Assembly (NCBI GenBank): GCA_021813125.1
Contig: JAKALT010000001.1
Span: 64,023 to 128,022 of the forward strand
Length of the DNA: 64,000 bases
From: a bacterium
GTDB lineage: Bacteria; Patescibacteriota; Microgenomatia; Curtissbacterales; GWA2-41-24
Direction: 5' to 3'
The notes beneath the pieces were generated by a model. The model was not told the origin of the DNA. It did not search any database and worked only from the letters and a program-made list of their open reading frames with translations. Numbering within the stretch: the stretch's first letter is position 1; each line of letters begins with the position of its first letter. The translations under genes were made by a program, and so were the position numbers. This document shows, in pieces, positions 941-49,269 of the stretch.

Positions 941-943
941 ACC

Positions 944-3193: not shown

Positions 3194-4057
3194 CTATTTT
3201 TGGGTAAAATAGTTATAAAGTAGCAAACCGATCTTCGACATCGTTGTATTTGCAGCGTTGTCCGAAGTAAAAATGTGGTTCTTTTCACCTTGCCCTTCCA
3301 TATAAATTGCCATAACAATCGTCCTTCTTCTTTTGGGATAAATTAGCGCCACATCGCTCGAATAGGTAAGGAAGTTATCCCTTTCGTAAACAATCGTTCC
3401 TGTTTTATTGCCTATTTTTATAATTTTCTGGCGCTTTACGCCTAAATTTGCCCATGTCGGCAATAGGCGCGGAATTTTGCCGTTATATTCCTGTTCACAG
3501 AGAATTTTTATGATTTTCTTCGTCATTTTTTCATCAAAAAGTTTAAAATTTTCAAGATCTATAAATGTCTTTGCCATATCGAATGCCGTTGTATTTGCCA
3601 TTTTTGTTTTTGCTCTTTTAAAGTTTGCCGGAAAATCGACTTTTTCGGTCAAAAGCCTTGTATTTGCAAGACCGATGCTTTTTATACATTTATTAATGTA
3701 GTCTTTTCCTAAATAATCAATGAGAACATTTGTTGCACTGTTATCGGAAACTATAATCATAAGAAGCGCAATATTATAAAGCGTGATTGGTTTGGAAAGA
3801 TCAAAATATTGCAAAATTCCGCTACCTTTGCCAATTTGTTTGGAAGCAATCTTTAATGGAGTATGAAGGCTGATTTTTTCATCTCCGATTTTTTTGAAAA
3901 GAGCAAGAAGGATTTGTAATTTTATTGTACTTGCCGATTCGAAAATACGATCAGAATTTAAGGTGAACTTTTTTCCGGTTTCCATGTCCTGGGCATAAAT
4001 TCCCCAAACCCTATTTTTTGCAGAAGTTAATTTATAAATTTTTTTATCTATATCCAC
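3194..4057 (-). CDS. Class A beta-lactamase-like serine hydrolase (no signal peptide)
   Basis: S-T-I-K (SxxK), 'SDN' and 'KTG' motifs in canonical order. Confidence 0.65.
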   Translation of the reverse strand: MDIDKKIYKLTSAKNRVWGIYAQDMETGKKFTLNSDRIFESASTIKLQILLALFKKIGDEKISLHTPLKIASKQIGKGSGILQYFDLSKPITLYNIALLMIIVSDNSATNVLIDYLGKDYINKCIKSIGLANTRLLTEKVDFPANFKRAKTKMANTTAFDMAKTFIDLENFKLFDEKMTKKIIKILCEQEYNGKIPRLLPTWANLGVKRQKIIKIGNKTGTIVYERDNFLTYSSDVALIYPKRRRTIVMAIYMEGQGEKNHIFTSDNAANTTMSKIGLLLYNYFTQK

Positions 4058-5825: not shown

Positions 5826-6488
5826 ATGAAATCTAGGATATTTTCCGGGTTTTATAAAATACTTTCGCTTTTTTCCCGTTTCCCAAAAAAGAACAAAGAG
5901 CGCTTTGTCTATGTGGCAATAGGTGATTCGTCCGTTGAAGGGGTCGGAGCTAGTCATCACACCAAATCATATCCTTCACTCATTTTTGAAAAAATAAAAT
6001 TAACTTACCCTAAAGGTGAATATCACAATCTGGGCAAAAGCGGCGACAGGATAGAGCATGTCGTTAAAAAACAGCTGCCGCAAGTTTTGGAGCTTAAACC
6101 AAACCTGGTAACAGTCAGCATCGGCGTGAACGACATCCGGGGCCGCGTAAAACTTTCCGATTTTGAAAAAGACCTTATGTATCTTGTAAGCACACTTCAA
6201 AACAAAACGGATGCCAAAATTATAATCAATAACATTCCCGATTTCTCCGCATTACCCACGTTGCCGATTTACATCCGGATCGCATCAAAGATTCTCATTC
6301 ACCGTTTCAACAGGTCAATTGAAAAAATATCCGACAACCTCAACATTACTTTGGTTGATATCTTTAAAGTTAGTAGGTATTTCTGCAAACAATGGAAAAA
6401 ATTCATTTCAAATGACGGTTTACACCCGTCCGATGCCGGCTACGCCCTCTGGGCGGAAACAATAATAGCTAACCTGACGTTCTTGTAA
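5826..6488 (+). CDS. SGNH/GDSL-family hydrolase
   Basis: 'AIGDSS' GDS(L) block I and C-terminal 'DGLHP' (DxxH) catalytic block; strong AAGGAGG RBS. Confidence 0.75.
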   Translation: MKSRIFSGFYKILSLFSRFPKKNKERFVYVAIGDSSVEGVGASHHTKSYPSLIFEKIKLTYPKGEYHNLGKSGDRIEHVVKKQLPQVLELKPNLVTVSIGVNDIRGRVKLSDFEKDLMYLVSTLQNKTDAKIIINNIPDFSALPTLPIYIRIASKILIHRFNRSIEKISDNLNITLVDIFKVSRYFCKQWKKFISNDGLHPSDAGYALWAETIIANLTFL

Positions 6489-7896
6489 GGAGTTGGGAAA
6501 GCCTTTTTGTTAAATAGTCTCTGGTATTTTTTGCCTTATCGTCCGCCACTTCTTCGAAAAGTTTTGAAAGGATCTCGCCGACTTTTGGTCCGGGTTTAAG
6601 ATCAAGAATTTTCATCACATCATTTCCATCAATAGCAAGATCGGCAACTGTGAACGGTTTTTTCAAAACTTCTTTGAGACGGGACCTAAAAAGTTTTAGT
6701 CTCCAAGACTCGGGCTGTTGAAGTCCGCCACCCAAACGATCGCCAATTCTAAGATCCATCATATCCTCAACATTTTCTAAACCGATATTTTTGATAAAAC
6801 GCCTAAGTGCCCTATCCGTTTGGTTTTCATTTACCGAAAACTGGTGCCAGCGCACCAAGCGAAATAGTTTGTCGCGCTCATCCCTCGAAAGGTGAAAACG
6901 CTCGGCAATTGCTACCGCCTGCCTTGCCCCAACTACCTCATGATTATGGAATGTCCGTACCCCTTCTTCTGTGACTTTGGCAACTTTCGCTTTGCCGATA
7001 TCATGAAGCATTGTGGCAAAGCGGGTAATTGTGTCTTTGGATGGGCAAGCATCAAGTGACATCACACAATGTGTTCCGACATCGTAAATATGGTGGCGTT
7101 TAGGGCTTTTCTGCTCGACGGCAAAACAAACCTCAAGTTCCGGTAAGATTACGGTTAATACGCTTAATTTTTTAGCCAAAAATATTCCGGAAGATGGAGT
7201 CGGGGAATCCACAATTTTAAAAACTTCATCGCGGATCCGCTCTCCGGAAATTTTGGAAATTAAACTCGCATTATCCTCAATTGCTTTGGCTGTCGCAGGG
7301 TCAATATCAAACCCCAGAGTTGTCGCAAACCTTATTGCCCGGAGCATCCTTAGTGCGTCCTCCCCAAACCGCTCGTTGGCATCACCAACAGTTTTTATAA
7401 GTTTATTTTTCAGGTCATCCTGTCCACCAAAAGGGTCAACCAAGTCCCAGTTACCAAGCTCAAGGCCAGGCCTTTGTCCAGAACCTTCTTCGTTAAGGCC
7501 TGGCCTTTCCCCACGTCTCAACGCCATGGCATTTATCGTAAAATCGCGGCGGGCTAAATCTTCCTGTAGCGTTTTTCCCCATTTGACTGTGTCCGGATGA
7601 CGAGTATCCGAGTAACCCTCCTCGGACCGATAAGTTGTGATCTCAACTATGTTCTCATCTTTGGTCTCTGGCTCCTGGCCACTGGAAACTGGCACCCCTA
7701 CTGTTCCAAACCTGTTATTATAAAATCCGTCAGGAAAAATCTTTAAAATTTCTTCCGGTTCTGCATTTGTTGTTAAATCCCAATCACCGACTTTGTTGCC
7801 CGACAAAATATCTCTTACCGCACCGCCGACAACTGCAGCTTCAAAACCCGCTTTTTCTAATTTTTCTAAAATATCAATAATCTTTTTGTCGACCAT
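6469..7896 (-). CDS. cca: CCA-adding tRNA nucleotidyltransferase with HD domain, carrying an in-frame repeat insertion
   Basis: 'GGAVRD...GDWDLTT' PolyA_pol head; 'RRDFTINAMA', 'DPFGG', 'ERFGEDALRMLRAIRF', 'HDIGK' HD motif; about 20 extra residues between NAMA and DPFGG. Confidence 0.85.
   Translation of the reverse strand: MVDKKIIDILEKLEKAGFEAAVVGGAVRDILSGNKVGDWDLTTNAEPEEILKIFPDGFYNNRFGTVGVPVSSGQEPETKDENIVEITTYRSEEGYSDTRHPDTVKWGKTLQEDLARRDFTINAMALRRGERPGLNEEGSGQRPGLELGNWDLVDPFGGQDDLKNKLIKTVGDANERFGEDALRMLRAIRFATTLGFDIDPATAKAIEDNASLISKISGERIRDEVFKIVDSPTPSSGIFLAKKLSVLTVILPELEVCFAVEQKSPKRHHIYDVGTHCVMSLDACPSKDTITRFATMLHDIGKAKVAKVTEEGVRTFHNHEVVGARQAVAIAERFHLSRDERDKLFRLVRWHQFSVNENQTDRALRRFIKNIGLENVEDMMDLRIGDRLGGGLQQPESWRLKLFRSRLKEVLKKPFTVADLAIDGNDVMKILDLKPGPKVGEILSKLFEEVADDKAKNTRDYLTKRLSQLLTRTSG
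7462..7509. repeat. Palindromic hairpin repeat copy (AAGGCCAGGCCTT-N19-AAGGCCTGGCCTT) embedded in-frame in cca
   Basis: Perfect 13-bp inverted repeat; encodes 'GERPGLNEEGSGQRPGLELG' in the cca reading frame. Confidence 0.7.
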
Positions 7897-7946
7897 ATAC
7901 CAATTATATTATCAACATACGATCAAAAAGAAATTTTTCTGCTAGA

Positions 7947-9581
7947 ATGGCACTACCAATGGAAAACATTTGGCGCATCAAAAACAAGGTAAGCGCTCCA
8001 AAAGGGGATTGGCTGGCACAAGTTTTAGCATCAAATCGCGGCCTTAATACTCCGACAAAGCTAAAACAGTTTCTGAATCCAACCTTCGATCAAATAACGT
8101 CTGTTAATATCGGCAAGACCGAAAAAGCAATAAGTCGTATCAAAACTGCAATTAAAAATAAGGAAAAAATAATCGTTTATTCCGACTACGATGCCGACGG
8201 CATCTCGGCAACTGCCATTATGTGGGAAACCCTAAACGATCTTGGTGCAAAAGTTATGCCATATGTCCCGCACCGTGTTTTAGAAGGTTACGGCCTTTAC
8301 ACTCCGGCGATTGAGGAATTAGCCAAAAATGGTATCAAACTTATAATCACTGTAGACCACGGGGTAACAGCAGTTGAGCAGGTTAAAGCAGCAAAAAAAC
8401 TGGGAATCGATGTCATAATAACCGACCACCATGTCCTTCCATCAAAAATTCCCGATTCATTTGCACTTGTGCACACCACCGAACTTTGCGGCGCAGGAGT
8501 TGCCTGGCGTTTTTGCTGGGACTTGATTAAAAACATAAAACCCGCTTACCAGGACCAACTTATTGAAAAACTGGAACTTGCAGCTATTGCGACTATTGCC
8601 GACCTAGTACCTCTCGTTGGGGCCAACCGGGCAATTGTCAAAATCGGCTTGGAAAAAATCCAAAAAACTACACGCTATGGCATCAAAAGTTTGATTTCTG
8701 CATCCGGCATAAACGGCAAAATAGGAACATACGAAATTGGCCACGTTTTGGCGCCAAGGATAAACGCCATGGGCCGAATCGAACACGGTCTGGATGCGCT
8801 AAGGCTGATCTGCTCCAGAAATAGAAGCCAGGCAGAGAGGTTAACCAAACTTCTAACCCAAACCAATAGCCGACGTCAGGATTTAACGACAAAAGCAATA
8901 AACCACGCGGCCGGGCTAGTTAACAATAATCATCTGGTAGGAGTTATTGCCCACGAAGACTGGCACGAGGGAGTGATTGGTCTTGTTGCTTCTAGGCTAG
9001 TGGAAATTCACCATCGGCCGATGATCATTATTGCTCGCGGAAAACAAAAATCCAAAGGGTCTGCAAGATCAATAGCCGGCTTTAATATAATCGAAGCAAT
9101 CCGCGCCTCCAGTGAATTTTTACTGGACGCAGGCGGCCACCCTATGGCGGCCGGGTTTTCCATAGAAACCAAATACATTGAGTCGTTTACCAAAAAGATC
9201 AACACATATGCCCAAACTGTAATCACCGAGGAAATTTTGGCTCCGGTAATTGAGGTTGAATGCCAAATGCCCAAAGATCAAATCACAAAGTATAATCTTG
9301 AAATTATCAAAGGTTTTGAACCCTACGGAGTGGCCAATCCTGTCCCTCTTTTCTTGACTAAAAATATGATGGTCGAAGACGTCAGGACAGTTGGCGCCGA
9401 CAACCGCCACTTAAAGCTGCAGGTAGACGGCTTTTCGGCAATTGGCTTTAGTCTTGGAAGCCAAAGAGCCAATATCAGACCAGGATATAAAGTTGATCTC
9501 GTTTACTCACTCGAACCGGATAACTTCAACGGCAAAGGCAGCCTCCAGCTAAAAATCAAAGACCTGGTAATTGTCAGCTAG
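7947..9581 (+). CDS. recJ: Single-stranded-DNA-specific exonuclease RecJ
   Basis: DHH motifs ('YSDYDADGISA', 'ITDHH'), DHHA1 domain, C-terminal OB-like region. Confidence 0.9.
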   Translation: MALPMENIWRIKNKVSAPKGDWLAQVLASNRGLNTPTKLKQFLNPTFDQITSVNIGKTEKAISRIKTAIKNKEKIIVYSDYDADGISATAIMWETLNDLGAKVMPYVPHRVLEGYGLYTPAIEELAKNGIKLIITVDHGVTAVEQVKAAKKLGIDVIITDHHVLPSKIPDSFALVHTTELCGAGVAWRFCWDLIKNIKPAYQDQLIEKLELAAIATIADLVPLVGANRAIVKIGLEKIQKTTRYGIKSLISASGINGKIGTYEIGHVLAPRINAMGRIEHGLDALRLICSRNRSQAERLTKLLTQTNSRRQDLTTKAINHAAGLVNNNHLVGVIAHEDWHEGVIGLVASRLVEIHHRPMIIIARGKQKSKGSARSIAGFNIIEAIRASSEFLLDAGGHPMAAGFSIETKYIESFTKKINTYAQTVITEEILAPVIEVECQMPKDQITKYNLEIIKGFEPYGVANPVPLFLTKNMMVEDVRTVGADNRHLKLQVDGFSAIGFSLGSQRANIRPGYKVDLVYSLEPDNFNGKGSLQLKIKDLVIVS

Positions 9582-9820
9582 TCACCCATGTGCGTTTGAT
9601 TTTGCGTGTGTTCGAACCAATCAATCCTCTCTCTGGGCGTCGGAAACCCGGCATTTCTCGTGGGAACATTTCCGTCGATTTGTGTGGCAGTATCAGCTGA
9701 TGCTGCCCTAGATTCACCAGCCGAACCAGCTTCAGGTCGTTCATGCCTTGAAGCACCAACACCAACCCACGGTCTTCCATCCCGCATTCTTAAATTTTGC
9801 GCTCCATCTATTCGTTCCAT
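9578..9820 (-). CDS. Small Gly/Arg/Ala/Pro-rich hypothetical protein (about 80 aa) with strong RBS
   Basis: AGGAGGTG 8 nt upstream of the ATG at 9820; GC-rich, low-complexity; stop overlaps the recJ stop (CTAG). Confidence 0.3.
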   Translation of the reverse strand: MERIDGAQNLRMRDGRPWVGVGASRHERPEAGSAGESRAASADTATQIDGNVPTRNAGFPTPRERIDWFEHTQNQTHMGD

Positions 9821-10013
9821 AATTTTCACCTCCTTTTTTTATTTTTTTTAGACAACATCTATTTGAAACAGCTCTCCTTCTCGTCTTCTTTTACTTGGGG
9901 GCTCTTTGGCAACTTCTGGCCAAATTGGACCATACTCTTTTTGCGGTTGCAATCTAGCGGCCTCTATCCTAGAAATCCTATCAACCGGACACCCAGCTTC
10001 TCCTCGCTCAATC

Positions 10014-10151
10014 ATGCAACCTTCCTCATATCAACTTCCCACCACTTATCCAACCCATCATTTGCTTCCATAACTCTTCCCACAATAAATCCGTGACCAC
10101 TAAACTTTTCATGAATCGTTGGGATATCCGTCAACAATATGTTGTTGTCTT
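10014..10151 (-). pseudogene. Out-of-frame 3' continuation of the methyltransferase (frameshift or phase-variation segment)
   Basis: Stop-free translation 'AKEVLDFFKYLKDNNILLTDIPTIHEKFSGHGFIVGRVMEANDGLDKWWEVDMRKVA' joined by a 1-nt change in the C8 tract. Confidence 0.5.
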
Positions 10152-10748
10152 TTAGGTACTTAAAAAAATCAAGCACTTCTTTTGCCCCCCCCGGCTCATT
10201 CTCTTGCGCCTTGAAATATCATCAAACTTCGCCGGGACTAAAGATGGGTGATGTAAATTTAGTAACAATTTACCACCAGGTTTAAGTACTCTTTGGGTTT
10301 CCTCGATTGCCTCTGGTGGCATAAAATCAATCGCCATGCTCGAGAGCGCGATATCGAAAACTCGATCACCAAACGGTAATTTAGAGCCGCTTGCTCTGAT
10401 ATGTGGGGCAAGTGATTTACAAAGTAAATTTCTAGCTGAAACGCAAGCTATATCTACCGAAACGAAATCTAGACCCTCCCTTCCATACGCCTGTATGTAC
10501 TCTCTCTCAAAAACTTGTCTTCCGGCACCCAGATCTAACACTCGCGCTGTGCCGGAAAGATTATGCAAAGCAGCGTTAAGCCTTCGTCTTAAAGAAACCC
10601 TGCTTTTGTTAGGGCTATCTTCCTTTTCATTTGCATAAAATCTAGTATAAAAACTAGACATTGTATTCTCCGTTCCTGGAGCAATTTTTGTTTCGACTCC
10701 CATTTTCCTCCAACAAAAAAACCTCCCGTTTGGGAGGTATTTTTTCAA
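10152..10748 (-). CDS. Class I SAM-dependent methyltransferase, N-terminal part, interrupted at a C8 homopolymer (probable true start near 10703)
   Basis: 'VLDLGAGRQ' motif I and 'LKPGGKLLLN' motif; the -1 frame stays open for 66 more codons to about 10014 after the poly-C tract at 10190-10197. Confidence 0.6.
   Translation of the reverse strand: MKKYLPNGRFFCWRKMGVETKIAPGTENTMSSFYTRFYANEKEDSPNKSRVSLRRRLNAALHNLSGTARVLDLGAGRQVFEREYIQAYGREGLDFVSVDIACVSARNLLCKSLAPHIRASGSKLPFGDRVFDIALSSMAIDFMPPEAIEETQRVLKPGGKLLLNLHHPSLVPAKFDDISRRKRMSRGGQKKCLIFLST
10722..10747. terminator. Terminator-like GC hairpin (CCTCCC-GTTT-GGGAGG) flanked by A/T runs on both strands
   Basis: 6-bp GC stem with 4-nt loop, preceded by A7 and followed by TATTTTTT; lies between the methyltransferase start and the aspS leader. 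Confidence 0.4.
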
Positions 10749-10886: not shown

Positions 10887-10937
10887 AAAGGTCAGGCCTT
10901 TTTCTTGCACGTTCCATTTTTAAGGCCTGACCTTTTA
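10887..10937. repeat. Palindromic hairpin repeat copy (AAAGGTCAGGCCTT-N20-AAGGCCTGACCTTTT) in the aspS upstream region
   Basis: 13-bp perfect inverted repeat of the same family as 7462, 33680, 49216. Confidence 0.65.
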
Positions 10938-10980
10938 CAACTGCTGGCACAAGCAGCCGATTTGGTTTAGAATCTACTCT

Positions 10981-12357
10981 ATGCGGACATTGGCCGTTGA
11001 AGCAAACCATAAAATTGGCCAAAAAGTAACTCTTTTTGGTTGGGCAAATGTTGTCCGCGACCACGGAAAAATCACCTTTATAGACCTCCGCGACATGTCA
11101 GGGATAATCCAAGCTGTTGCCAAAAAAGATTACGGAGTCACCCCGGAAGATGTTATAAAAATCGAAGGAACTGTAAAAAAACGCCCCGAAAAACTCATAA
11201 ACCCAAATTTGCCGACTGGCGAAATAGAAATAGAAGTTGAAAATCTGGAAATTTTAAATAAAGCCAAAACGCCACCTTTTCCAATAGAAACAAACGGGTT
11301 GGATATCGAAGAAGCCTTGCGGCTTAAATACCGCTACTTAGATTTACGCAGGCCTCGCATGAGCCAGAACCTAAAACTCAGACATCAAATGATATCCCTC
11401 ATGCGTCAGTTTTTAACCGAGCGACATTTTACGGAAGTTGAAACTCCGATTTTAACTAAAACCACCCCGGAGGGTGCCCGTGATTTTCTGGTTCCGTCAC
11501 GTCTTCAGCCGGGCAGTTTCTATGCGCTTCCTCAGTCGCCACAACAGTACAAACAGCTTTTAATGGTGGCAGGGCTAGAACGTTACTTTCAAATCGCCCG
11601 TTGTTTCCGTGACGAAGACCCAAGAGCCGACCGGGCTTACGGCGAATTTACACAACTCGATATCGAAATGTCCTTTATTGAGCAGGATGATATTTTAAAA
11701 TTAACGGAGGAATTATTTAAGGAAATAACCGAAAAGGTTTTCAAAAAGAAAGTGCTTGAATATCCTTTTCCTAGAATACCCCACAAAGAAGCAATTAAAA
11801 AATATGGTGCGGACAAATTCGATCTTCGGCCTAAAAAAGATCCAAACGTTTTGGCTTTTGCCTTTGTTGTTGATTTCCCTCTCTTCACCGAGCAGACTAA
11901 AGAAGATTTTTACCATGGATCCGGCTCTGCCAAATTTGCGCCCTCCCACCATATGTTTACCGCTCCTCACCCGGAAGATATCAAACTTTTGGACACCGAC
12001 CCCCAAAAAGTCCGTGGCCTCCAACACGATTTAGTCTGTAATGGCTTCGAAGTAGGCGGCGGCAGCATCAGGATCCACAAACGGGAAATCCAGGAGAAAA
12101 TCTTCTCACTCATCGGTTTTTCCAAAGCCCAAAAAGAAGAGTTTAGCCACATGTTGGAAGCTTTTGAATACGGTGTTCCTCCGCATGGGGGAATCGCCCC
12201 AGGAATTGACCGGTTTTTAATGACAGCTCTTGCCGAACCCAGCGTTCGCGAAACAATTGCATTCCCCACATCGGCTTCCGGACAAACGGCAGTGATGGAT
12301 GCTCCAAGCCCGGTCGACGAAAAAACCCTAAAAGAGTTAAAACTCAAAAAACTGTGA
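10981..12357 (+). CDS. aspS: Aspartyl-tRNA synthetase (compact bacterial form lacking the large insertion domain)
   Basis: N-terminus 'MRT...TLFGWANVVRDHGKITFIDLRDMSG' OB-fold; class II motifs 'FRDEDPRADR', 'QLDIEMSF', 'GGGSIRIH'. Confidence 0.85.
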   Translation: MRTLAVEANHKIGQKVTLFGWANVVRDHGKITFIDLRDMSGIIQAVAKKDYGVTPEDVIKIEGTVKKRPEKLINPNLPTGEIEIEVENLEILNKAKTPPFPIETNGLDIEEALRLKYRYLDLRRPRMSQNLKLRHQMISLMRQFLTERHFTEVETPILTKTTPEGARDFLVPSRLQPGSFYALPQSPQQYKQLLMVAGLERYFQIARCFRDEDPRADRAYGEFTQLDIEMSFIEQDDILKLTEELFKEITEKVFKKKVLEYPFPRIPHKEAIKKYGADKFDLRPKKDPNVLAFAFVVDFPLFTEQTKEDFYHGSGSAKFAPSHHMFTAPHPEDIKLLDTDPQKVRGLQHDLVCNGFEVGGGSIRIHKREIQEKIFSLIGFSKAQKEEFSHMLEAFEYGVPPHGGIAPGIDRFLMTALAEPSVRETIAFPTSASGQTAVMDAPSPVDEKTLKELKLKKL

Positions 12358-14415: not shown

Positions 14416-14465
14416 GTTAAGGCTAAGCCTTAACCTAAGCCTAGTTTAAAAAAAGACCTGGCCTT
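14416..14465. repeat. Degenerate copy of the palindromic hairpin repeat upstream of gltX
   Basis: 'AAGGCTAAGCCTT ... AAGACCTGGCCTTT'; 2-3 mismatches per arm to the family consensus. Confidence 0.35.
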
Positions 14466-14477: not shown

Positions 14478-15758
14478 ATGCAAAAAGTTAGAGTCCGCTA
14501 CGGCCCATCCCCAACAGGAATTCCCCACATTGGAAACATAAGAACCGCTCTTTTTAACTTCCTTTTTGCCAAAAACCAAGAGGGAAAATTTTTTCTTAGA
14601 ATCGAAGACACGGATCAGGCACGGATTGTTCCGGGTGCAGTCGAAAAGATAAAAGAAAGCCTCAAGTCATTAAATCTTACCTGGGACGAAGATATCATCT
14701 TTCAGTCAAAACGCCTGGACATTTACCAAAAATATCTAAATGATCTCAAATCGAAGGGCTTTGCGTATGAAGACGAAGGTGCCTGGCGCTTTAAAATTCA
14801 AACAGAAAAGAAATCCGTAAGCTGGCAGGATGTTGTCCACGGACCTGTCGAATTCCCGACAAATGTCATAGAGGATTTCATAATCATAAAATCCGACGGT
14901 TTCCCTACGTATCATTTTGCATCGGTTGTTGACGATCACTTAATGGAAATCTCGCATGTTATGCGCGGCGACGAGTGGATTTCTTCAACACCTAAGCACC
15001 TACTTTTGTATGAGGCACTAGGTTGGCAGCATCCACAATTTGTTCATCTGCCACCCATTTTAGGGGCAGACCACAAAAAACTTTCTAAACGGGAAGGGGC
15101 AAAATCCGTTTTGGAATATATCGACGAGGGCTATCTTTCCGAAGCAATAGTCAATTTTCTGGCACTTTTGGGATGGTCACCCAAAGGCAATCAGGAAATT
15201 TTCTCACTCAACGAGCTCAAAGAAGAATTTTCGCTCGACCGCATCAACAAAAACAGCCCCATTTTCAATATCGAAAAATTAGGTTGGTTCAACCAGAAGA
15301 GGATTATTAAAATGACTACTGATGATTTAGCTCTAAAATTAAAAGACCTAAATTACAATCGACAATCAGAACATCTCAGAAAAAATAACAGATATTACAA
15401 AACCGATACGCTTTTTAAGCAAATCGTTGGCCTTTCGAAGGAAAGAATAGTGACCTTAAGAGAATTTTACGAACTTGCAGCTCCAATCTGGGAATATAAA
15501 CCTGTTTCCAGAACGGAACAAGATGTCGCTATAGCTAAAGATCTCGAAAAGAGCTTGCAACAGATACTAAATATCAATTGGACTACAGATAAAATTCTGG
15601 AAGAACTAAAAAAATTATTAGGAAGGCATAACGTTAAAATGAGTTCATGCTATCGTATAATCACAGGCAGGGAGAAAGGTTTACCTCTACCTGAGACGCT
15701 CGAAATTTTGGGCAAAGACGAAGTATTAAAAAGAATAAGTGACGCAATCAAAATCTAG
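14478..15758 (+). CDS. gltX: Glutamyl-tRNA synthetase
   Basis: 'PSPTGIPHIGN' HIGH motif and 'KLSKR' KMSKS motif. Confidence 0.9.
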   Translation: MQKVRVRYGPSPTGIPHIGNIRTALFNFLFAKNQEGKFFLRIEDTDQARIVPGAVEKIKESLKSLNLTWDEDIIFQSKRLDIYQKYLNDLKSKGFAYEDEGAWRFKIQTEKKSVSWQDVVHGPVEFPTNVIEDFIIIKSDGFPTYHFASVVDDHLMEISHVMRGDEWISSTPKHLLLYEALGWQHPQFVHLPPILGADHKKLSKREGAKSVLEYIDEGYLSEAIVNFLALLGWSPKGNQEIFSLNELKEEFSLDRINKNSPIFNIEKLGWFNQKRIIKMTTDDLALKLKDLNYNRQSEHLRKNNRYYKTDTLFKQIVGLSKERIVTLREFYELAAPIWEYKPVSRTEQDVAIAKDLEKSLQQILNINWTTDKILEELKKLLGRHNVKMSSCYRIITGREKGLPLPETLEILGKDEVLKRISDAIKI

Positions 15759-16401
15759 AAAAGCTGTTGTCGGCGTTTTCGCCCATCCGGACGACGAATC
15801 TTTTGGACCATCAGGTACTATTGCCAAGTTTGCCAAAACTCACGATGTTTATATTCTGTGTGCCACAAAGGGGGAGGAGGGAATGGGCCCAAAATCCAAC
15901 CTTGGCAAGATACGGGCCCAAGAACTTCAAAATTCGGCAAGAATTCTCGGGGTAAAAGCAGTTTACTTTTTAGGATTTTTAGACGGTACTCTTTCCAATA
16001 ACCTGTATCACAAATTAGCCTCCAAAATAGAAAAAAAACTTAAAATGCTAAAACCGGAAATTATAATTACCACAGAACCCAACGGAGTTTCCGGCCATAT
16101 AGACCACATTACTGTTTCCATGGTCACAACCTTTGTTTTTCGTAAACTGCCTTTTGCAAAAACTCTTATGTATTACTGTATAGACGAAAGATCGGCGGCC
16201 AAAATGAAAAATTATTTTATTTATTTTCCGCCGGGCTACAAACGCACTCAGGTCGACAAAATTATAAATACCGAAAAATATTGGCATCTTAAAAAACAGG
16301 CAATGATGGCACATAAATCGCAAGTAGAAGATGCCAAAAGAGTTTTGGCCAGAATGGAAAACTTGCCCAAGGAAGAGTATTTCTCAATAAAGAAGAAATG
16401 A
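15739..16401 (+). CDS. PIG-L/LmbE family N-acetylglucosaminyl deacetylase
   Basis: 'VGVFAHPDDESFGPSGT' PIG-L signature; conserved His/Asp residues. Confidence 0.75.
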   Translation: MTQSKSRKAVVGVFAHPDDESFGPSGTIAKFAKTHDVYILCATKGEEGMGPKSNLGKIRAQELQNSARILGVKAVYFLGFLDGTLSNNLYHKLASKIEKKLKMLKPEIIITTEPNGVSGHIDHITVSMVTTFVFRKLPFAKTLMYYCIDERSAAKMKNYFIYFPPGYKRTQVDKIINTEKYWHLKKQAMMAHKSQVEDAKRVLARMENLPKEEYFSIKKK

Positions 16402-17624
16402 AAATTTTCAACACTTTTTCCGGGAAAAAAGAGAAAATAAATCTTGGGGAAAGAATCGGAATTTACGTTTGTGGAATTACACCCGATGCTCCAGCACACT
16501 TAGGTCACGCTTTTCTGTTCGTAACTTACGATACCCTCATTCGCTATTTAAGGTTTTTAGGCGCAAAAGTTACATATGTCCAGAATGTAACGGACATTGA
16601 CGATGACATACTAATAAGGTCAAAAAAAGCCGGCCTTTCCTGGGAAGAAATGGGAAATATTCAAACAAAAAATTACATTAAGAATATGGATGCTTTAAAT
16701 GTTGTCCGTCCGGATTTTTATCCGAAAGCTACCGAAAATGTAGGGCAAATGATAACAATTATCAAAAAACTGGTTGCAAAAAAACTTGCTTATACCAAAA
16801 ATGGCTCCGTTTTAGGCCCGCAGTCCGAAAGACGAGGACCGCAGAGCTCTGTCTATTTTTCTGTTTTAAAAGACAAAAACTTCGGTAAGCTTTCAAAATA
16901 CGACTATCCGGCTATGCTGGAAATTGCAAATGAAAGAGGTAATTTTCCCGAAGACCCAATTAAAAATAACCCTTTAGATTTTGTCCTTTGGCAGGCCAAA
17001 AAAGAAGGGGAACCTTCATGGCCCTCACCATGGGGAAACGGTCGGCCGGGTTGGCATATAGAATGTTCGGTGATGTCAATGCGCTATCTTGGCCCGACGA
17101 TTACAATCCATGGCGGGGGATCGGATCTCATATTTCCTCACCACGAAGCAGAGATCGCTCAATCCCAAAACGTAACCGGCAAGAAATTCGTAAAAGCTTG
17201 GATGCACACTGCAATGGTTTTTTGCGAGGGCAAAAAGATGAGCAAAAGCCTTGGCAACATGATTTTTATCTCAGATCTAATTAAAAAATATTCACCCAAC
17301 ACGATTCGTATACTGCTTCTTTCGCACCACTACAGAAACCCCTGGAATTTTGATGAAGCGGAATTAGAAAAGGCCGAAAAAATTATAGCCACGTTCAAGC
17401 AAGCGCTAAAAGGTCAGGCCCTAGCATTAGCTCAGCATGGAAAAAGACCTGACCTTAAATATGCCCAAAAATATCTGCCTGCTTTTTTCAAATCCTTAGA
17501 CGACGACTTTAACACACCGGCCGCAATCAAGGTTTTAGAAAAAGCCGCAAAATCTAAAAAGCCCGAAACAAAAGCTGCCGTAATTTTAGCCGCATCACAA
17601 ATCTTTGGATTAAATCTTTCGTAA
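16398..17624 (+). CDS. cysS: Cysteinyl-tRNA synthetase (short form, 408 aa)
   Basis: N-terminus 'MKIFNTFSGKKE', 'YVCGITPDAPAHLGHAF', 'KMSKSLGN', 'DDDFNTP'; C-terminus shorter than E. coli CysRS. Confidence 0.8.
   Translation: MKIFNTFSGKKEKINLGERIGIYVCGITPDAPAHLGHAFLFVTYDTLIRYLRFLGAKVTYVQNVTDIDDDILIRSKKAGLSWEEMGNIQTKNYIKNMDALNVVRPDFYPKATENVGQMITIIKKLVAKKLAYTKNGSVLGPQSERRGPQSSVYFSVLKDKNFGKLSKYDYPAMLEIANERGNFPEDPIKNNPLDFVLWQAKKEGEPSWPSPWGNGRPGWHIECSVMSMRYLGPTITIHGGGSDLIFPHHEAEIAQSQNVTGKKFVKAWMHTAMVFCEGKKMSKSLGNMIFISDLIKKYSPNTIRILLLSHHYRNPWNFDEAELEKAEKIIATFKQALKGQALALAQHGKRPDLKYAQKYLPAFFKSLDDDFNTPAAIKVLEKAAKSKKPETKAAVILAASQIFGLNLS
17408..17457. repeat. Hairpin-repeat-like palindrome inside the cysS coding sequence (AAAGGTCAGGCCC-N22-AAAGACCTGACCTTA)
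   Basis: Imperfect copy (2 mismatches) of the family; translates in-frame as 'KGQALALAQHGKRPDLKY'. Confidence 0.4.
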
Positions 17625-28572: not shown

Positions 28573-29580
28573 ATGAAGACTGATACTGCTGAAAAAATTA
28601 TTGGATATATTGCAATCAACAAACAGGCTCGTGCGCATGATATTGGAAGAATATTTAATATTGGCCAGCCTGCTGTTCATAGACAGCTAAAAAAGCTTGT
28701 AGAACAAGGCACACTTCAAAAAGTAGGCAAACCCCCACTTGTTTTTTACATACTGGCTCCAAAAAACCAAACTGAAAATATTTTGGGTAAGGCATCTATT
28801 TTGGGCAGAAATACAGTTGATTACATAGATAAAAATTATTTGTACATTACTCCTCAGGGAGAATTGCTCTATGGGCTTGAAGGATTTAAGCAGTGGGCTA
28901 AATCTATAAAAGAAGAATCACGCCTTGTGCCTCTGTCGGAAGAATACGTAAAAATGCACACTCAGGCAGAAGTAAGCAGATCTTCCGAAGGATGGATTGA
29001 TGCAACGCATAAAATCAAAACTACTTTTTTTGAAAATGCTATAACAAAACTATTTTATGGTGATTTTTACAGTATTCCAAAATTTGGAAAAACAAAGTTG
29101 GGTAATTTAGTTTTGTATTCTAAACAATCTCAAAACAGAGAACTTATTGATAAAGCAGTGGAGGAAGTAAAACCAATTATTGATCAAATAATTGCAATGT
29201 ATAACATTGACACTATTGCCTTTGCCCCTCCAAGCTTACCTCGGAAACTGCAATTCATGCAGGAATTTGCTGATAGGCTTAATATAAATCTACCTAAAAT
29301 TCACTTGGTAAAGTTATACAAGGGAAATATTATTGTTGCTCAAAAATCACTCGCTGGCCTTGAAGAAAGAATAACGAATGCTAGGGATACAATTTATCTG
29401 AAGTCGCAGGTTCCCATAAACGCCCGAAATATCCTGTTAATTGATGACGCGGTAGGATCTGGAGCAACTTTAAATGAGATTGCAAAGAAGCTTCAAGCCA
29501 GCAATACTAATAAAAAAACAATTATCGGGTTTGCAATTGTTGGAAGTGTAAAAGGATTTGAAGTTATCAGAGAAATCTAA
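28573..29580 (+). CDS. ComF-family phosphoribosyltransferase-domain protein with N-terminal winged-helix DNA-binding domain
   Basis: N-terminal wHTH ('HDIGRIFNIGQPAVHRQLKKLVEQG'); C-terminal PRTase motif 'ILLIDDAVGSGATL' with ComF-like upstream blocks ('IDTIAFAPPS', 'RxxQF'). Confidence 0.55.
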   Translation: MKTDTAEKIIGYIAINKQARAHDIGRIFNIGQPAVHRQLKKLVEQGTLQKVGKPPLVFYILAPKNQTENILGKASILGRNTVDYIDKNYLYITPQGELLYGLEGFKQWAKSIKEESRLVPLSEEYVKMHTQAEVSRSSEGWIDATHKIKTTFFENAITKLFYGDFYSIPKFGKTKLGNLVLYSKQSQNRELIDKAVEEVKPIIDQIIAMYNIDTIAFAPPSLPRKLQFMQEFADRLNINLPKIHLVKLYKGNIIVAQKSLAGLEERITNARDTIYLKSQVPINARNILLIDDAVGSGATLNEIAKKLQASNTNKKTIIGFAIVGSVKGFEVIREI

Positions 29581-33679: not shown

Positions 33680-33731
33680 CAAAGGCCAGGCCTTGGCCTA
33701 GGCCGACACTCAGAAAAAGGCCTGACCTTAA
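33680..33731. repeat. Palindromic hairpin repeat copy (AAAGGCCAGGCCTT-N21-AAAGGCCTGACCTTA) at the 3' end of the 33041 gene
   Basis: Same arm consensus as 10887 and 49216; loop contains GGCCTAGGCC. Confidence 0.6.
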
Positions 33732-45986: not shown

Positions 45987-46448
45987 GTGATTTGTCCTTT
46001 TTGTGCCAACGAGGCAACTAAAGTATTAGACAAGCGAGAAGGTGATTTTGGGAAAGTAACCAGAAGACGTCGGGAGTGTCAAAAATGTGGTCGCAGGTTT
46101 ACAACTTTCGAAAGAGCCGAAACTTTAGATCTTTTAATAGTTAAAAAAGACGGAAAAAGAGAAATATTCGACAGGGCCAAACTTAGAAGCGGAATCATCA
46201 AAGCTTGCGAGAAAAGGCCGGTTTCCGCAGAAAGCATCGAGAAGGTTATAGACGAAATCGAAGCGGACTTAAGAAAAAGCAGCGCCAGCGAAGTACCAAG
46301 CAAAACAGTAGGCGAACAAGTGACAAAAAAGCTCAAAAAGTTGGATAAGGTTGCCTACATAAGGTTTGCGTCGGTTTACAGGCAGTTTGCCGATATAAGT
46401 GATTTTGAAAACGAATTGGCCAAACTGTCAAAGAGGTTTAAAAAATGA
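45987..46448 (+). CDS. nrdR: Transcriptional repressor NrdR
   Basis: 'MICPFC...ECQKCGRRFTTFE' zinc ribbon followed by an ATP-cone. Confidence 0.9.
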   Translation: MICPFCANEATKVLDKREGDFGKVTRRRRECQKCGRRFTTFERAETLDLLIVKKDGKREIFDRAKLRSGIIKACEKRPVSAESIEKVIDEIEADLRKSSASEVPSKTVGEQVTKKLKKLDKVAYIRFASVYRQFADISDFENELAKLSKRFKK

Positions 46449-49207
46449 AGACTCAAATTAAAGTTAAAGTAGATTTAAGAACAGCCCAGCGCGAAGCGGC
46501 CCGAAAAGTCGGCAGAAAAATTCTGTCAGCCCCCAAAGACCTTCCCGAACCCAACCTTTCCGAAAACGCCGCTTATATTGCCAAAACCAGATATGCATTT
46601 AGAAATGAAAAGGGCGAGCCGGTTGAAACACCAAGAGAACTTTTTTGGCGCGTTGCTTACTATATTGCCTCGGCAGACCGTATTTATACAGGAAAAGGTG
46701 ATGACGCAAAAACCCACGAAAAAACAGCCCGCGAGTTCTACGGCTTAATGTCCGCCCAGAAATTTATTCCCAATACACCAACTTTGGTCAACTCCGGCAA
46801 AACCGGCCAGTCATTGTCTGCATGTTTTGTCCTGCCGGTAGATGATGACCTCGAGGCTATTTTAAAAACGATGCGCAATATGGCCATGATCCACAAAATG
46901 GGCGGCGGCACAGGATTTTCCTTTTCGCGCCTAAGGCCCAAGGACGATGTTATCGGCACATCAAAAGGCAAAACAACTGGTCCGGTAGCTTTCTTGCAGG
47001 CTTACAACGATGTCACCTCCCAAATCCGCCAAGGGGGAGTCCGCCGTGGTGCCAATATGGGAATTCTCCATTACACCCACCCGGATGTTTTACGCTTTGC
47101 CGTTCACAAAGTCGATGAATTTTCTCTAACCAATTTCAATATTTCTGTAACTGTTGACGAAAAATTTATGGAAAAGGTCAAAACCGACGCCCAATTTACC
47201 CAGGGCGAAATGGAAACAGACGAAATAATCGGAGATCTTAAAGAAGCCTACGCTATTCGCGACTTGGATCTTAAAAACGTTAGGATAGAGGAGGCTGTGA
47301 AAAGGCTCTACGACCTGTGTGAGGCCAAAGAAGAAGGCGAGGGTTACAATCTTATAAATCCCCGAACAAAAGAAGTCACCGGTCGTCTTAACGCCAAAAA
47401 GGTTTTTGATCTTATCACAAAACTTGCCTGGCAGTACGGCGATCCGGGAATGATTCTAATCGACCGCGTCAATAATTCGCGGGCAAACCCAACTCCGGCA
47501 ATCGGCATGATCGAGGCCACAAACCCCTGCGCCGAACAGCCGCTTCTCCCTTACGATGCTTGCACCCTAGGATCGATAAACCTTTCCAAATTCGCTGATG
47601 CCAAAACCAAAGAAATAGGCTGGGAAGACCTCAAACAATCAATTCACACGGCAGTGCACTTTTTAGACAATGTTCTTGATATGAACGAATACCCTGTTGA
47701 CGAAATCGACGAAATGACTTCGCGTATCCGTCGCATTGGCCTCGGCGTCATGGGATGGGCGGACATGCTGGTTAAACTTGGCATCGCATACAACACCCAG
47801 GAAGGATTTGATTTAGCAGAGCGTGTCATGGAATTCGTCCAAAACGAGGCGGATATGGCATCGGTCGAGCTTGCCAAAATCCGGGGCGCCTTTCCGGCTT
47901 TTAAAGACTCAATCTACAATAAAAAAGGTGGTTTCAAGCCCCGAAACGGCGCCAGGACTACGATCGCGCCAACCGGCACCATCTCGCTTCTTGCAGACTG
48001 CTCTTCTGGAATTGAACCTCATTTTGCCTTAACTTTTGCCAAAAACACTATAGAAGGAAAGCGCCTTTTTACTACTAATCCATACTTTCTTGAGGCTCTA
48101 AAATCACAAGGCTTAGAAAGCGACGAGCTCCTTTCCAAGGTTGAAGAAGGTAGAGGATCAATCCAAAAAATTGACGAAATTCCCCAAGACCTTAGAAAAG
48201 TTTTCGTAGTTGCTGGCGATATAGTTCCCAAGGATCATGTCCGAATGGCCGCTGCCTTCCAGAAATTTACCGACAACGGCATTTCAAAAACTATAAACTT
48301 TCCGAACGAAGCAACAGTTGAAGACGTCCGTGAAGCGTATTGGCTAAGTTACGAGTTAGGCTGCAACATGATAACCATTTACCGCGACGGATCCAGGGTA
48401 AAACAAGTTTTGGAGGTCAAAAAAGGTAAATCATATTATGACCAGATGACAGGTAAGAGAATCAGCCAGGAAACACAAGAAGAAATCCCTTACACCCCAA
48501 CCAAACGCCCGACACCCCAGGAAGCCTGGGGTATGCGGATCCGCAAAAAAGCCGACGTCGGCCCGGTTTACACGTCGGTCTTTCGTGATGCCGACGGTGC
48601 GCCTGTTGAAGTCTTTGTCACAATCGGCAAAACCGGCGGATACGTTGCCGGCGCTGCCGAAGTAACAGGCCGTTTGGCATCCCGCGCTCTCAAATACGGT
48701 GCTTCACTTGAGGAAATCGCAACCGATTTGGTTGGCATTTCTTGCGGCACGCCTTACGGTTTGGGCCAGGAATCTGTCCTTTCGGCATTTGATGCGGTTG
48801 GCAAATCACTTTTGGAAATTGCCCGAGCCAAACAGCTCCAGTTGCCGGTTGTAGAAGAAACTCAGCCAGCTCAAATTCAAACCCAAGAAGAAGCAACCAT
48901 CGAGCAAAGAATTCGCATCGCTTCCAATGGTCACACCAACGGACACACATTATCAAATGGCCATTCGAATGGGTTGTCAAACGGTCATTCGAATGGCCAT
49001 ACAAAGCCGCAAACAGCCGACGATAACCAATTAGCTCTCAGCTCGACAATAGCTCCGCAACAAGGTCAAATGATGACGGTTTATCACGAAGAAAAAGCTA
49101 TCGAATCCAAATTCACATCCTGCCCGGACTGCGGCTCGCCGGTAACCTACGCCGAAGGCTGCCGCAAATGTATAAACCCAACTTGCGGTTGGTCCAAGTG
49201 CAGTTAA
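46445..49207 (+). CDS. nrdJ: Adenosylcobalamin-dependent (class II) ribonucleotide reductase
   Basis: 'NPCAEQPLLPYDACTLGSINL' active-site block; C-terminal CxxC...CxxC zinc ribbon; low-complexity 'NGHTNGHTLSNGHSNGLSNGHSNGHT' before the C-terminus. Confidence 0.85.
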   Translation: MKTQIKVKVDLRTAQREAARKVGRKILSAPKDLPEPNLSENAAYIAKTRYAFRNEKGEPVETPRELFWRVAYYIASADRIYTGKGDDAKTHEKTAREFYGLMSAQKFIPNTPTLVNSGKTGQSLSACFVLPVDDDLEAILKTMRNMAMIHKMGGGTGFSFSRLRPKDDVIGTSKGKTTGPVAFLQAYNDVTSQIRQGGVRRGANMGILHYTHPDVLRFAVHKVDEFSLTNFNISVTVDEKFMEKVKTDAQFTQGEMETDEIIGDLKEAYAIRDLDLKNVRIEEAVKRLYDLCEAKEEGEGYNLINPRTKEVTGRLNAKKVFDLITKLAWQYGDPGMILIDRVNNSRANPTPAIGMIEATNPCAEQPLLPYDACTLGSINLSKFADAKTKEIGWEDLKQSIHTAVHFLDNVLDMNEYPVDEIDEMTSRIRRIGLGVMGWADMLVKLGIAYNTQEGFDLAERVMEFVQNEADMASVELAKIRGAFPAFKDSIYNKKGGFKPRNGARTTIAPTGTISLLADCSSGIEPHFALTFAKNTIEGKRLFTTNPYFLEALKSQGLESDELLSKVEEGRGSIQKIDEIPQDLRKVFVVAGDIVPKDHVRMAAAFQKFTDNGISKTINFPNEATVEDVREAYWLSYELGCNMITIYRDGSRVKQVLEVKKGKSYYDQMTGKRISQETQEEIPYTPTKRPTPQEAWGMRIRKKADVGPVYTSVFRDADGAPVEVFVTIGKTGGYVAGAAEVTGRLASRALKYGASLEEIATDLVGISCGTPYGLGQESVLSAFDAVGKSLLEIARAKQLQLPVVEETQPAQIQTQEEATIEQRIRIASNGHTNGHTLSNGHSNGLSNGHSNGHTKPQTADDNQLALSSTIAPQQGQMMTVYHEEKAIESKFTSCPDCGSPVTYAEGCRKCINPTCGWSKCS

Positions 49208-49215: not shown

Positions 49216-49269
49216 AAAAGGTCAGGTCTTAAGCTTGGCTCTTGCTGCAAGAAAAAGGCCTGACCTTAA
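49216..49269. repeat. Palindromic hairpin repeat copy (AAAGGTCAGGTCTT-N23-AAAGGCCTGACCTTA) at the nrdJ 3' end
   Basis: Same family; begins 9 nt after the nrdJ stop, so a terminator-like position. Confidence 0.6.

What the first reader, a model, noticed from the sequence alone, without database searches (positions are those of the whole stretch)
7462..7509. Palindromic hairpin repeat inserted in-frame into the CCA-adding enzyme gene (RPE-like behaviour)
A perfect 13-bp inverted repeat, AAGGCCAGGCCTT-N19-AAGGCCTGGCCTT, lies inside the cca ORF. It belongs to the same family as intergenic copies at 10887, 33680 and 49216. It reads through in-frame as 'GERPGLNEEGSGQRPGLELG', giving a duplicated RPGL peptide. 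It sits exactly where CCA enzymes normally have a short loop between 'TINAMA' and 'DPFGG' (about 8 aa in B. subtilis, 28 aa here). In-frame insertion of selfish palindromic elements into loops of essential proteins is classically described for Rickettsia palindromic elements; finding it in this CPR-like genome would be new.
Basis: seen in the sequence. Interest (0 to 1): 0.75.

Follow-up and report, generated by a model that had tools for sequence, protein, structure and literature searches.

The report
Hairpin repeat translated inside essential genes
A 46-base hairpin-forming repeat that is scattered through this Curtissbacteria (CPR) genome sits in-frame inside the CCA-adding enzyme gene and many other housekeeping genes, adding a floppy 15-residue loop; this resembles the Rickettsia palindromic elements and I found no earlier report of it in CPR bacteria.

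Summary
AAGGCCAGGCCTT (7462-7474) and its exact reverse complement (7495-7507) lie 20 nt apart (not 19) inside cca. They read through as RPGLNEEGSGQRPGL.

The element belongs to a repeat family with six copies in the window. About 138 copies were found in related CPR genomes.

Syntenic orthologues at about 75% identity lack exactly these 15 aa (Cca) and 16 aa (CysRS). Closer relatives keep the element at the same codons, with conserved arms and a diverged spacer.

About 22% of copies lie in-frame in long ORFs: SufC-like ATPase, FolD, AspRS, LepA, RecF, ligase, Obg, PriA, DnaE, S2, ThyX. Both orientations and several frames are used. Arm position 5 covaries with its partner (C-G, T-A, G-C, A-T), so pairing between the arms is constrained.

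In an AlphaFold model the insert is a low-confidence loop at a beta-hairpin tip.

A second, unrelated family (CACCTCSGAGGTG) occupies the same Cca loop in another lineage, and about 60% of its copies are intragenic.

Best reading: a REPIN/RPE-like hairpin repeat that is, or was, mobile and is tolerated in protein loops. The transposition machinery was not found. I rate it a new variant of a known kind.

The parts
7462..7507 (-). 46-nt palindromic repeat element inside cca. Arms 7462-7474 and 7495-7507, spacer 7475-7494. Translated on the minus strand as (E)RPGLNEEGSGQRPGL, Cca residues about 130-145.
   Evidence: RNA hairpin -29.1 kcal/mol, z = -3.6. Identical in 3 other assemblies.
6469..7896 (-). 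cca gene (class II CCA-adding enzyme / PolyA_pol head + HD domain), 475 aa; host of the element.
   Evidence: PDB 1MIV match is split exactly at the insertion. AF2 model mean pLDDT 84.6.
17410..17456 (+). Second in-frame copy, inside the CysRS gene. Arms AAGGTCAGGCCCT / AAGACCTGACCTT (2 stem mismatches, decaying). Translated as KGQALALAQHGKRPDL.
   Evidence: The 16-aa segment is absent from orthologues L007/L008 and present in L001/L003. Pfam tRNA-synt_1e.
16398..17624 (+). CysRS gene, 408 aa; host of the second in-frame copy.
10887..10935 (.). Intergenic copy (14-nt perfect arms, 21-nt spacer) between divergent genes, upstream of AspRS (10981..12357).
   Evidence: I17. Absent from the orthologous spacer of L007; two copies in L001.
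14419..14465 (.). Degenerate intergenic copy (AAGGCTAAGCCTT / AAGACCTGGCCTT) upstream of GluRS (14478..15758).
   Evidence: Orthologous copy in L001 at 3324-3372.
33682..33729 (.). Intergenic copy, 22-nt spacer, between co-directional genes.
49218..49267 (.). Intergenic copy, 24-nt spacer, 11 nt after the stop codon of the 920-aa ORF 46445..49207.
   Evidence: (I5).

Best explanation
The 46-nt sequence is one copy of a dispersed, hairpin-forming repeat family: two 13-nt inverted arms AAGGNCAGGCCTT / AAGGCCTGNCCTT around a 20-24-nt, less conserved spacer.

Shown: the family has spread through the genomes of this Curtissbacteria lineage and occurs in several other CPR lineages. Copies lie in intergenic DNA and, in-frame, in protein-coding genes.

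Shown by comparison: the cca copy is an old insertion of exactly 45 nt at the tip of a surface beta-hairpin of the head domain, between motif B (RRDFTINA) and DPFGG. It arose before the window, WY3.bin73 and L003 lineages split, and after their split from the L007/L008 clade.

Inferred: it is transcribed and translated with the gene, giving a 15-residue flexible Gly/Pro/Ser/charged loop that the enzyme tolerates. Only insertions that keep the frame, contain no stop codon and land in loops survive selection, which explains why they sit in loops of essential proteins.

Inferred by analogy with REPIN/RAYT and IS200/IS605 systems: spread goes through a single-stranded hairpin intermediate recognised by a protein acting in trans, not through a DDE-transposase MITE mechanism. 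That protein was not identified.
For: Family and non-randomness: 72 loci, chance expectation below 0.1; 138 non-redundant copies, spacer mode 20-23 nt.

Precise indels against syntenic orthologues: Cca 15 aa, CysRS 16 aa, AspRS-upstream spacer.

Orthologous copies: arms about 91% identical between window and L001 (cca 26/26), against spacers of 40-57% and a genome average of about 76% nt.

Pairing constraint: 95% Watson-Crick pairing between arms. Position 5 and its partner 9' occur as C-G 63, T-A 50, G-C 14, A-T 1, with only 10 non-pairs (chi-square p about 5e-54). The orthologous AspRS-upstream copies differ by a compensated T-A versus C-G change.

Subfamilies and arrays: subfamily-specific spacer consensus, and arrays that share arms.

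Intragenic copies: about 30 of 138 in ORFs of at least 200 codons. Pfam confirms an ABC ATPase (SufC-like by my reading), FolD, AspRS, an EF-G/LepA-type GTPase, RecF, ATP-dependent DNA ligase, Obg, PriA, DnaE, S2, ThyX, Mur ligase, RecJ and CysRS. In several (FolD, the GAD domain of AspRS, Obg, ThyX) the profile match comes in two stretches.

Both orientations are used (13 same as the gene, 9 opposite) and several frames. No copy splits a gene.

Structure: insert residues 132-144 have pLDDT below 50 and lie between strands 125-128 and 150-153. The 1MIV alignment has 5 aa there against 25 here.

A different palindromic family occupies the same Cca loop in L081 and is itself mostly intragenic.
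Against: No transposase or RAYT was found. A phmmer search with an IS200 TnpA sequence recalled from memory found nothing in about 700 kb (a weak test). Ten ORFs flanked by elements are ordinary genes.

No target-site duplication or robust flank signal was seen.

No filled/empty polymorphism between close strains was available, so mobility rests on distribution alone.

The arms are conserved across deep divergence, and the same 13-mer occurs in several CPR phyla. This could instead reflect a host function (a protein-binding site) or gene conversion between copies.

The element was absent from 2.9 million viral contigs, so no vector for horizontal spread is known.

Translation of the insert is inferred, not observed.
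Confidence: 0.72

Rival explanations
1. The paired 13-mers are functional cis-elements, binding sites of a conserved CPR protein such as a nucleoid, partition or repair factor, or a regulatory RNA hairpin. They are kept by selection; they are not selfish DNA. The copies in genes are sites that happen to be tolerated.
For: The arms are far better conserved than the spacers or the genome average between orthologous copies. The same arm sequence occurs in Curtissbacteria, Gottesmanbacteria, Collierbacteria, Saccharibacteria and Paceibacteria MAGs. Each arm is itself nearly palindromic (AAGGCC-W-GGCCTT), as sites for dimeric proteins are. No transposase was found.
Against: Copies appear as discrete 45-48-nt insertions relative to orthologues, not as sites built by point mutation. 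The G-C/C-G subtype breaks the palindromy within each arm but keeps the pairing between arms. Some orthologous copies decay: window CysRS, L003, L005, L006. Copies form arrays and subfamilies like REPIN populations. There is no positional bias towards promoters or 3' ends.
Confidence: 0.15
2. It is a miniature inverted-repeat transposable element moved by a DDE transposase that recognises the 13-bp terminal inverted repeats in double-stranded DNA.
For: Terminal inverted repeats, small size, dispersed copies, and in-frame intragenic copies as reported for RPEs and other MITEs (review PMC10969869).
Against: No target-site duplication was seen. No longer element with the same ends was seen in the DNA held. 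Compensated changes between the two arms are expected for a hairpin substrate, not for two independently bound ends. At 46 nt it is far below usual MITE sizes.
Confidence: 0.08
3. It is a transcription terminator or mRNA-stabilising hairpin family, and the cca copy is incidental.
For: Stable hairpins of -23 to -29 kcal/mol. Some copies sit just after stop codons: 49218 is 11 nt after a stop, and the median distance is 30 nt.
Against: The distribution over tandem, divergent and convergent spacers (46/13/10) matches the background (331/53/67), with no depletion in divergent promoter regions. There is no consistent T-run. 22% of copies are inside genes. There is no Rfam match.
Confidence: 0.03
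4. It is a DNA-uptake signal sequence for natural competence, arranged as inverted pairs.
For: The motif is over-represented, short, shared across lineages and present in both coding and non-coding DNA. CPR bacteria depend on imported nucleotides (my own knowledge).
Against: From my own knowledge, uptake sequences accumulate by point substitution and do not create indels. Here every intragenic copy is an extra 45-48 nt. Density of about 1 per 10-30 kb is far below that of known uptake sequences. The fixed pairing with a family-specific spacer is not expected.
Confidence: 0.02

Closest known systems
Rickettsia palindromic elements (RPE; Ogata et al. 2000/2002, as summarised in PMC10969869)
   Same: A dispersed palindromic repeat family in a small, reduced genome. 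A large share of copies is inserted in-frame in unrelated housekeeping genes. The insertions sit in positions that appear compatible with the protein fold. Several families coexist.
   Different: RPEs are about 100-150 bp and each family encodes one conserved peptide in one reading frame. This element is 46 nt and is read in either orientation and in at least three frame combinations (RPGL, KGQAL, KARPL, KGLAL). The host is a CPR bacterium, not an alphaproteobacterium. There is no sequence similarity.
REPINs (REP doublets forming hairpins) mobilised by RAYT transposases (PMC3116915)
   Same: Two highly conserved short sequences in inverted orientation, separated by a less conserved spacer. Predicted hairpin. 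Compensatory changes between arms. Doublets dominate over singlets. Higher-order arrays occur. The population persists over long times.
   Different: REPINs are extragenic, 70-110 bp from centre to centre, and carry GTAG/CGTC-type tags (PMC3733652). They flank a single-copy RAYT gene. Here 22% of copies are intragenic, arm spacing is about 34 nt, there is no GTAG/CGTC tag and no RAYT was found.
Coding palindromes and hairpin elements in mitochondrial genes (e.g. Nematomorpha, PMC6649704)
   Same: Inverted repeats embedded in protein-coding sequence, with both arms translated.
   Different: An organellar setting, much longer arms (up to 284 bp), and not a dispersed family that also occupies intergenic DNA.

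Membership tests
RPE-like in-frame palindromic repeats | Dispersed repeat family with palindromic (hairpin-forming) structure | tested here: met
RPE-like in-frame palindromic repeats | A copy is an insertion relative to orthologous proteins and keeps the reading frame | tested here: met
   Cca +15 aa; CysRS +16 aa; many other hosts
RPE-like in-frame palindromic repeats | Each family encodes one conserved peptide in one frame; element about 100-150 bp | tested here: not met
   46 nt; both orientations and several frames are translated
RPE-like in-frame palindromic repeats | Insertion lies at a surface or loop position compatible with the fold | tested here: met
   AF2 model: pLDDT below 50 for 132-144 at a beta-hairpin tip, rest of head domain confident; PDB alignment breaks there
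REP/REPIN-RAYT system | Inverted doublet of conserved short sequences with a less conserved spacer, forming a hairpin with compensatory changes | tested here: met
   compare PMC3116915
REP/REPIN-RAYT system | Restricted to extragenic space | tested here: not met
   About 30 of 138 copies inside ORFs of at least 200 codons
REP/REPIN-RAYT system | Cognate RAYT (Y1/HUH transposase) gene flanked by the repeats | tested here: inconclusive
   No hit with an IS200 TnpA sequence recalled from memory in about 700 kb. Ten element-flanked ORFs are ordinary genes. Whole genomes could not be scanned.
REP/REPIN-RAYT system | GTAG or CGTC tetranucleotide at one end of the palindrome | tested here: not met
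   Arms begin AAGG and end CCTT; no such tag in the consensus or flanks
MITE (DDE-transposase dependent) | Terminal inverted repeats flanked by target-site duplications | tested here: not met
   Terminal inverted repeats are present, but flanks show no direct repeats or consistent signal
MITE (DDE-transposase dependent) | Parent insertion sequence with the same ends in the genome | not tested
   Only windows of up to 8 kb around copies were available; no whole-genome scan was possible

The most novel reading that the evidence does not exclude
CPR (Patescibacteria) genomes harbour several unrelated families of ultra-short (about 35-50 nt) paired-palindrome elements. These routinely colonise loops of essential proteins: 22% of copies of the AAGGYCAGGCCTT family and about 60% of copies of the CACCTCSGAGGTG family are intragenic and in-frame. 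This would make them a major, so far undescribed source of the lineage-specific insertions seen in CPR proteins. The near-identity of the arms across CPR phyla would reflect a dedicated, conserved trans-acting machinery (a domesticated nuclease or transposase) still to be discovered.
Probability: 0.4. Interest if true: 0.85.

Novelty: new variant of a known kind. Interest (0 to 1): 0.7.

Why it matters
In-frame colonisation of essential genes by selfish palindromes has been treated as a speciality of Rickettsia.

Finding the same behaviour in CPR bacteria, with much smaller elements, several families, and hosts such as Cca, aminoacyl-tRNA synthetases, DnaE, FolD and ribosomal protein S2, points to a general outcome in small, gene-dense genomes. 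With little intergenic room, the surviving copies of a repeat are the ones that land in tolerant protein loops.

It gives a concrete DNA-level origin for many lineage-specific loop insertions in CPR proteins.

It warns annotators and structure predictors that such segments are repeat-derived.

It also defines a recognisable motif for hunting the unknown mobilising or binding protein.

Tried and rejected
Rfam: gathering search on the whole window and an E-value search on 7300-17600 found no family at any copy.

Transposase hunt: phmmer with an IS200 TnpA recalled from memory gave no hit in about 700 kb. Pfam on 10 ORFs flanked by copies found only ordinary genes.

Target-site duplication or extended flank palindromes: only a weak GTT/AAC tendency next to arm 1, not robust.

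Intron or translational-bypass reading: I deleted each 'non-coding' copy in silico to see whether split genes would fuse. The few candidates are simply copies in short spacers between co-directional genes, some of which supply the upstream stop codon.

Terminator reading: no bias towards 3' ends or against divergent spacers.

Phage vector: 0 hits in viral contigs.

Chance or loop slippage: rejected by copy statistics and family membership.

The window-only 14-aa CysRS insertion (16809-16850) was tested as another repeat family. It has no other copy in the window.

The taxon labels 'Gammaproteobacteria' on two element-rich MAGs were checked and look wrong. Their SufC and FolD proteins are 63-80% identical to those of the Curtissbacteria-like WY3.bin73 and carry the same insertions.

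Full report
**Observation.**
The sequence is as described, with small corrections. AAGGCCAGGCCTT lies at 7462-7474 and its exact reverse complement AAGGCCTGGCCTT at 7495-7507. They are separated by 20 nt, not 19. The element lies inside ORF 6469..7896 on the minus strand. This is a 475-aa class II CCA-adding enzyme with PolyA_pol, PolyA_pol_RNAbd, HD and tRNA_NucTran2_2 domains. It is read through as ...RRGERPGLNEEGSGQRPGLELG.... The 13-mer with up to 1 mismatch occurs 11 times in the window against 0.11 expected. The degenerate arm AAGGYCWGRYCTT gives 23 matches against 1.15 expected. The identical 46 nt are present in three independently assembled contigs, so it is not an assembly artefact.

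**Copies in the window.**
There are six paired copies with arm-to-arm spacers of 20-24 nt:
- 7462-7507, in cca
- 10888-10934 and 14419-14465, in divergent intergenic spacers upstream of AspRS and GluRS
- 17410-17456
- 33682-33729 and 49218-49267, between co-directional genes

It lies inside the CysRS gene (16398..17624, Pfam tRNA-synt_1e) and is translated as KGQALALAQHGKRPDL. The copies fold into hairpins of -16 to -29 kcal/mol; for the four copies with intact stems (cca, 10888, 33682, 49218) the values are -21 to -29 and z = -3.4 to -5.2. No Rfam family matches any copy.

**Organism.**
The closest Cca homologues are from Candidatus Curtissbacteria (CPR/Patescibacteria). The window has about 42% G+C.

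**Is the cca segment an insertion?**
Yes. In an alignment of 120 Curtissbacteria Cca proteins, the stretch from FTINAMA to DPFGG is 23-25 residues in many lineages, and that stretch is hypervariable. I fetched syntenic loci.
- The orthologues at 75% identity (L007, L008) read ALRFANGKLSMTPVDP. The window reads ALRRGE[RPGLNEEGSGQRPGL]ELGNWDLVDP. The difference is exactly 15 aa (45 nt), which is the element.
- Relatives at 88% (L001, MAG WY3.bin73) and 82% (L003) carry the element at the same codons.
- L005 (81%) keeps one arm. L006 (80%) has a decayed right arm.

The same pattern holds for CysRS. The 16-aa segment is present in the window, L001 and L003 and precisely absent in L007 and L008. 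It also holds for the AspRS-upstream spacer: no element block in L007, one copy in the window, two in L001, and two decayed copies in L003. L007 and L008 contain no arm motif at all in 21 kb each.

**Conservation pattern.**
Window and WY3.bin73 share only about 76% nucleotide identity over the syntenic region. Yet the cca arms are 26/26 identical, including all eight third-codon positions, while the spacers match at only 8/20. Over the four orthologous copies the arms are about 91% identical and the spacers 40-57%. The window and L001 copies upstream of AspRS differ by a compensated change: T-A against C-G at arm position 5 and its partner. Other orthologous copies are decaying (window CysRS copy, L003, L005, L006). 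The arms are therefore either under selection or homogenised against other copies, but not in every lineage.

**The family elsewhere.**
An exact-pattern scan of one genome per prokaryotic species (chance expectation below 0.1, my estimate from the number of specified bases) returned 72 loci.
- About 32 copies are in WY3.bin73 (1.13 Mb).
- About a dozen each are in a Gottesmanbacteria MAG and in a MAG labelled 'Gammaproteobacteria'. That MAG and a second one with the same label are in fact Curtissbacteria-like: SufC is 75-80% identical to WY3.bin73 and carries the same insertion.
- Further copies are in Collierbacteria, Saccharibacteria, Paceibacteria and other Patescibacteria MAGs.
- A few singletons occur elsewhere and may be chance.
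- None was found in 2.9 million viral contigs.

Relaxing the pattern gave 138 non-redundant copies. Spacer length peaks at 20-23 nt. The spacers have subfamily consensus sequences: AACCTNRG...TCC..GAAA/ACA in the Curtissbacteria type and AAAACGGCTTGGCCNCGNCAGNG in the Gottesmanbacteria type. Arrays of three or four arms that share arms occur, for example L052 1521-1623.

**Pairing.**
Across the 138 copies, 95% of inter-arm positions are Watson-Crick pairs. Arm position 5 and its partner occur as C-G (63), T-A (50), G-C (14) and A-T (1), with 10 non-pairs. The search pattern did not force this. The G-C type breaks the palindromy within each arm but keeps the pairing between arms, so the constrained feature is the long hairpin. 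This covariation is partly inherited within subfamilies, so it represents a few events rather than 138.

**Intragenic copies.**
About 30 of the 138 copies lie in ORFs of at least 200 codons. Pfam identifies the hosts as:
- an ABC ATPase, which I read as SufC-like (same site in three genomes), and FolD (same loop in three genomes, with one to three tandem copies)
- AspRS, CysRS, an EF-G/LepA-type GTPase, Obg and ribosomal protein S2
- RecF, an ATP-dependent DNA ligase, PriA, RecJ and DnaE
- ThyX and a Mur ligase

For FolD, the GAD domain of AspRS, Obg and ThyX the Pfam match comes in two stretches. Two very large ORFs that I read as surface proteins (1,652 and 1,853 codons; not checked against Pfam) also carry copies. 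Both orientations are used (13 the same as the gene, 9 opposite) and several frames, giving RPGL, KGQAL, KARPL or KGLAL peptides. No copy splits a gene. In-silico removal of 'non-coding' copies revealed only copies in short spacers between co-directional genes. Intergenic copies are spread over tandem, divergent and convergent spacers like the background: 46/13/10 against 331/53/67. This argues against a terminator role.

**Structure.**
An AlphaFold2 model built with 48 homologues has mean pLDDT 84.6. Residues 132-144 fall below 50 and lie between strands 125-128 and 150-153. The insert is therefore a flexible extension at the tip of a beta-hairpin in the head domain. The alignment to the solved Geobacillus enzyme 1MIV breaks exactly there: 5 residues in 1MIV against 25 here.

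**A second family at the same site.**
In another Curtissbacteria lineage (L081, P0041) the same Cca loop contains three arms of a different palindrome: CACCTCGGAGG, CACCTCCGAGGTG and CCTCGGAGGTG. Of 113 copies on contigs below 50% G+C, 68 lie well inside ORFs of at least 200 codons. Hosts include M1 peptidase, an epimerase, Pol IV, another Cca (in a different loop), topoisomerase I, a carbamoyltransferase, UvrD and LeuRS. The behaviour is therefore not peculiar to one element.

**Mechanism.**
- Shown: a dispersed family, precise in-frame indels, a pairing constraint, placement in a loop, and tolerance in essential genes.
- Inferred: the element spreads, or once spread, as a hairpin-forming unit like a REPIN. 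REPINs also consist of two conserved inverted sequences around a looser spacer, show compensatory changes, and form clusters (PMC3116915). Selection then removes all genic insertions except in-frame, stop-free ones in loops.
- Not found: a transposase (both weak tests), target-site duplications and insertion polymorphism.

The strong conservation of the arms, and their sharing across CPR phyla, leaves room for a host-function reading, a protein-binding site, which I rate at about 0.15.

**Comparison and novelty.**
The closest known behaviour is that of the Rickettsia palindromic elements (summarised in PMC10969869). This element differs from them: it is about a third of the length, has no single encoded peptide, is used in both orientations, and sits in a different phylum. 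It resembles REPINs in architecture but fails the extragenic and GTAG/CGTC criteria, and no RAYT was found. Full-text searches for MITE, REP, RPE-like or palindromic elements in CPR/Patescibacteria returned nothing relevant. I rate it a new variant of a known kind, with interest 0.7.

Noticed in passing
L081 3365-3445; loci L084-L203: A second, unrelated paired-palindrome family (arms CACCTCSGAGGTG, which contain the anti-Shine-Dalgarno and Shine-Dalgarno sequences) occupies the same Cca loop in another Curtissbacteria lineage. It is widespread in low-GC metagenome contigs, with about 60% of copies in-frame inside genes such as TopA, UvrD, LeuRS, Pol IV and Cca.
   Followed up: partly
window 16809-16850: A 14-aa insertion found only in the window (VLGPQSERRGPQSS) in CysRS, absent even from the closest syntenic relative in hand (L001/WY3.bin73; CysRS 78% identical). 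It contains a direct repeat GGNCCGCAG but has no other copy in the window.
   Followed up: partly
window 48957-49000: Perfect 15-nt inverted repeat ATGGCCATTCGAATG / CATTCGAATGGCCAT inside the 920-aa ORF 46445..49207. The DNA is a tandem palindromic unit that encodes a (S/T)NGH repeat linker ahead of the C-terminal Cys-rich tail. This is another coding palindrome of a different kind.
   Followed up: partly
window 28536-28573: An 18-nt, 94% complementary inverted repeat (ACATAGTACATAGTACAC / GTATACTATGTACTATGT) about 160 nt downstream of the tRNA gene at 28305-28375 and abutting the start of ORF 28573..29580. Possibly an operator or an attachment-like site.
   Followed up: no
L003 about 212-330 (CysRS gene 44-1309, minus strand): L003 CysRS has an extra insertion of about 20 aa (SPQGKRANLNADRFQQGSALVYQP) directly next to the element copy. 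It may be a second, decayed copy.
   Followed up: no
L009, L012, L031, L032, L044, L049, L060, L063, L065, L079, L080 (CAYTEJ01) and L015, L017, L033, L043, L051 (CAZEDQ01): Two MAGs deposited as 'uncultured Gammaproteobacteria' carry this CPR element. Their SufC and FolD proteins are 63-80% identical to those of the Curtissbacteria-like MAG WY3.bin73, so the taxon label appears wrong.
   Followed up: partly
window 7650-7700 (Cca residues about 71-80): A second low-confidence, variable loop in Cca (SGQEPETKDE; pLDDT below 50 at residues 74-79). In L121 the equivalent loop of another Cca carries a copy of the CACCTCSGAGGTG family.
   Followed up: no
window arms; all loci: The common arm polymorphisms (C/T at positions 5 and 10, G/A at the partner positions) all fall on the first C of a GGCC. 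That is the position a HaeIII-type m5C methylase would modify (from my own knowledge), so deamination may drive arm variation.
   Followed up: no
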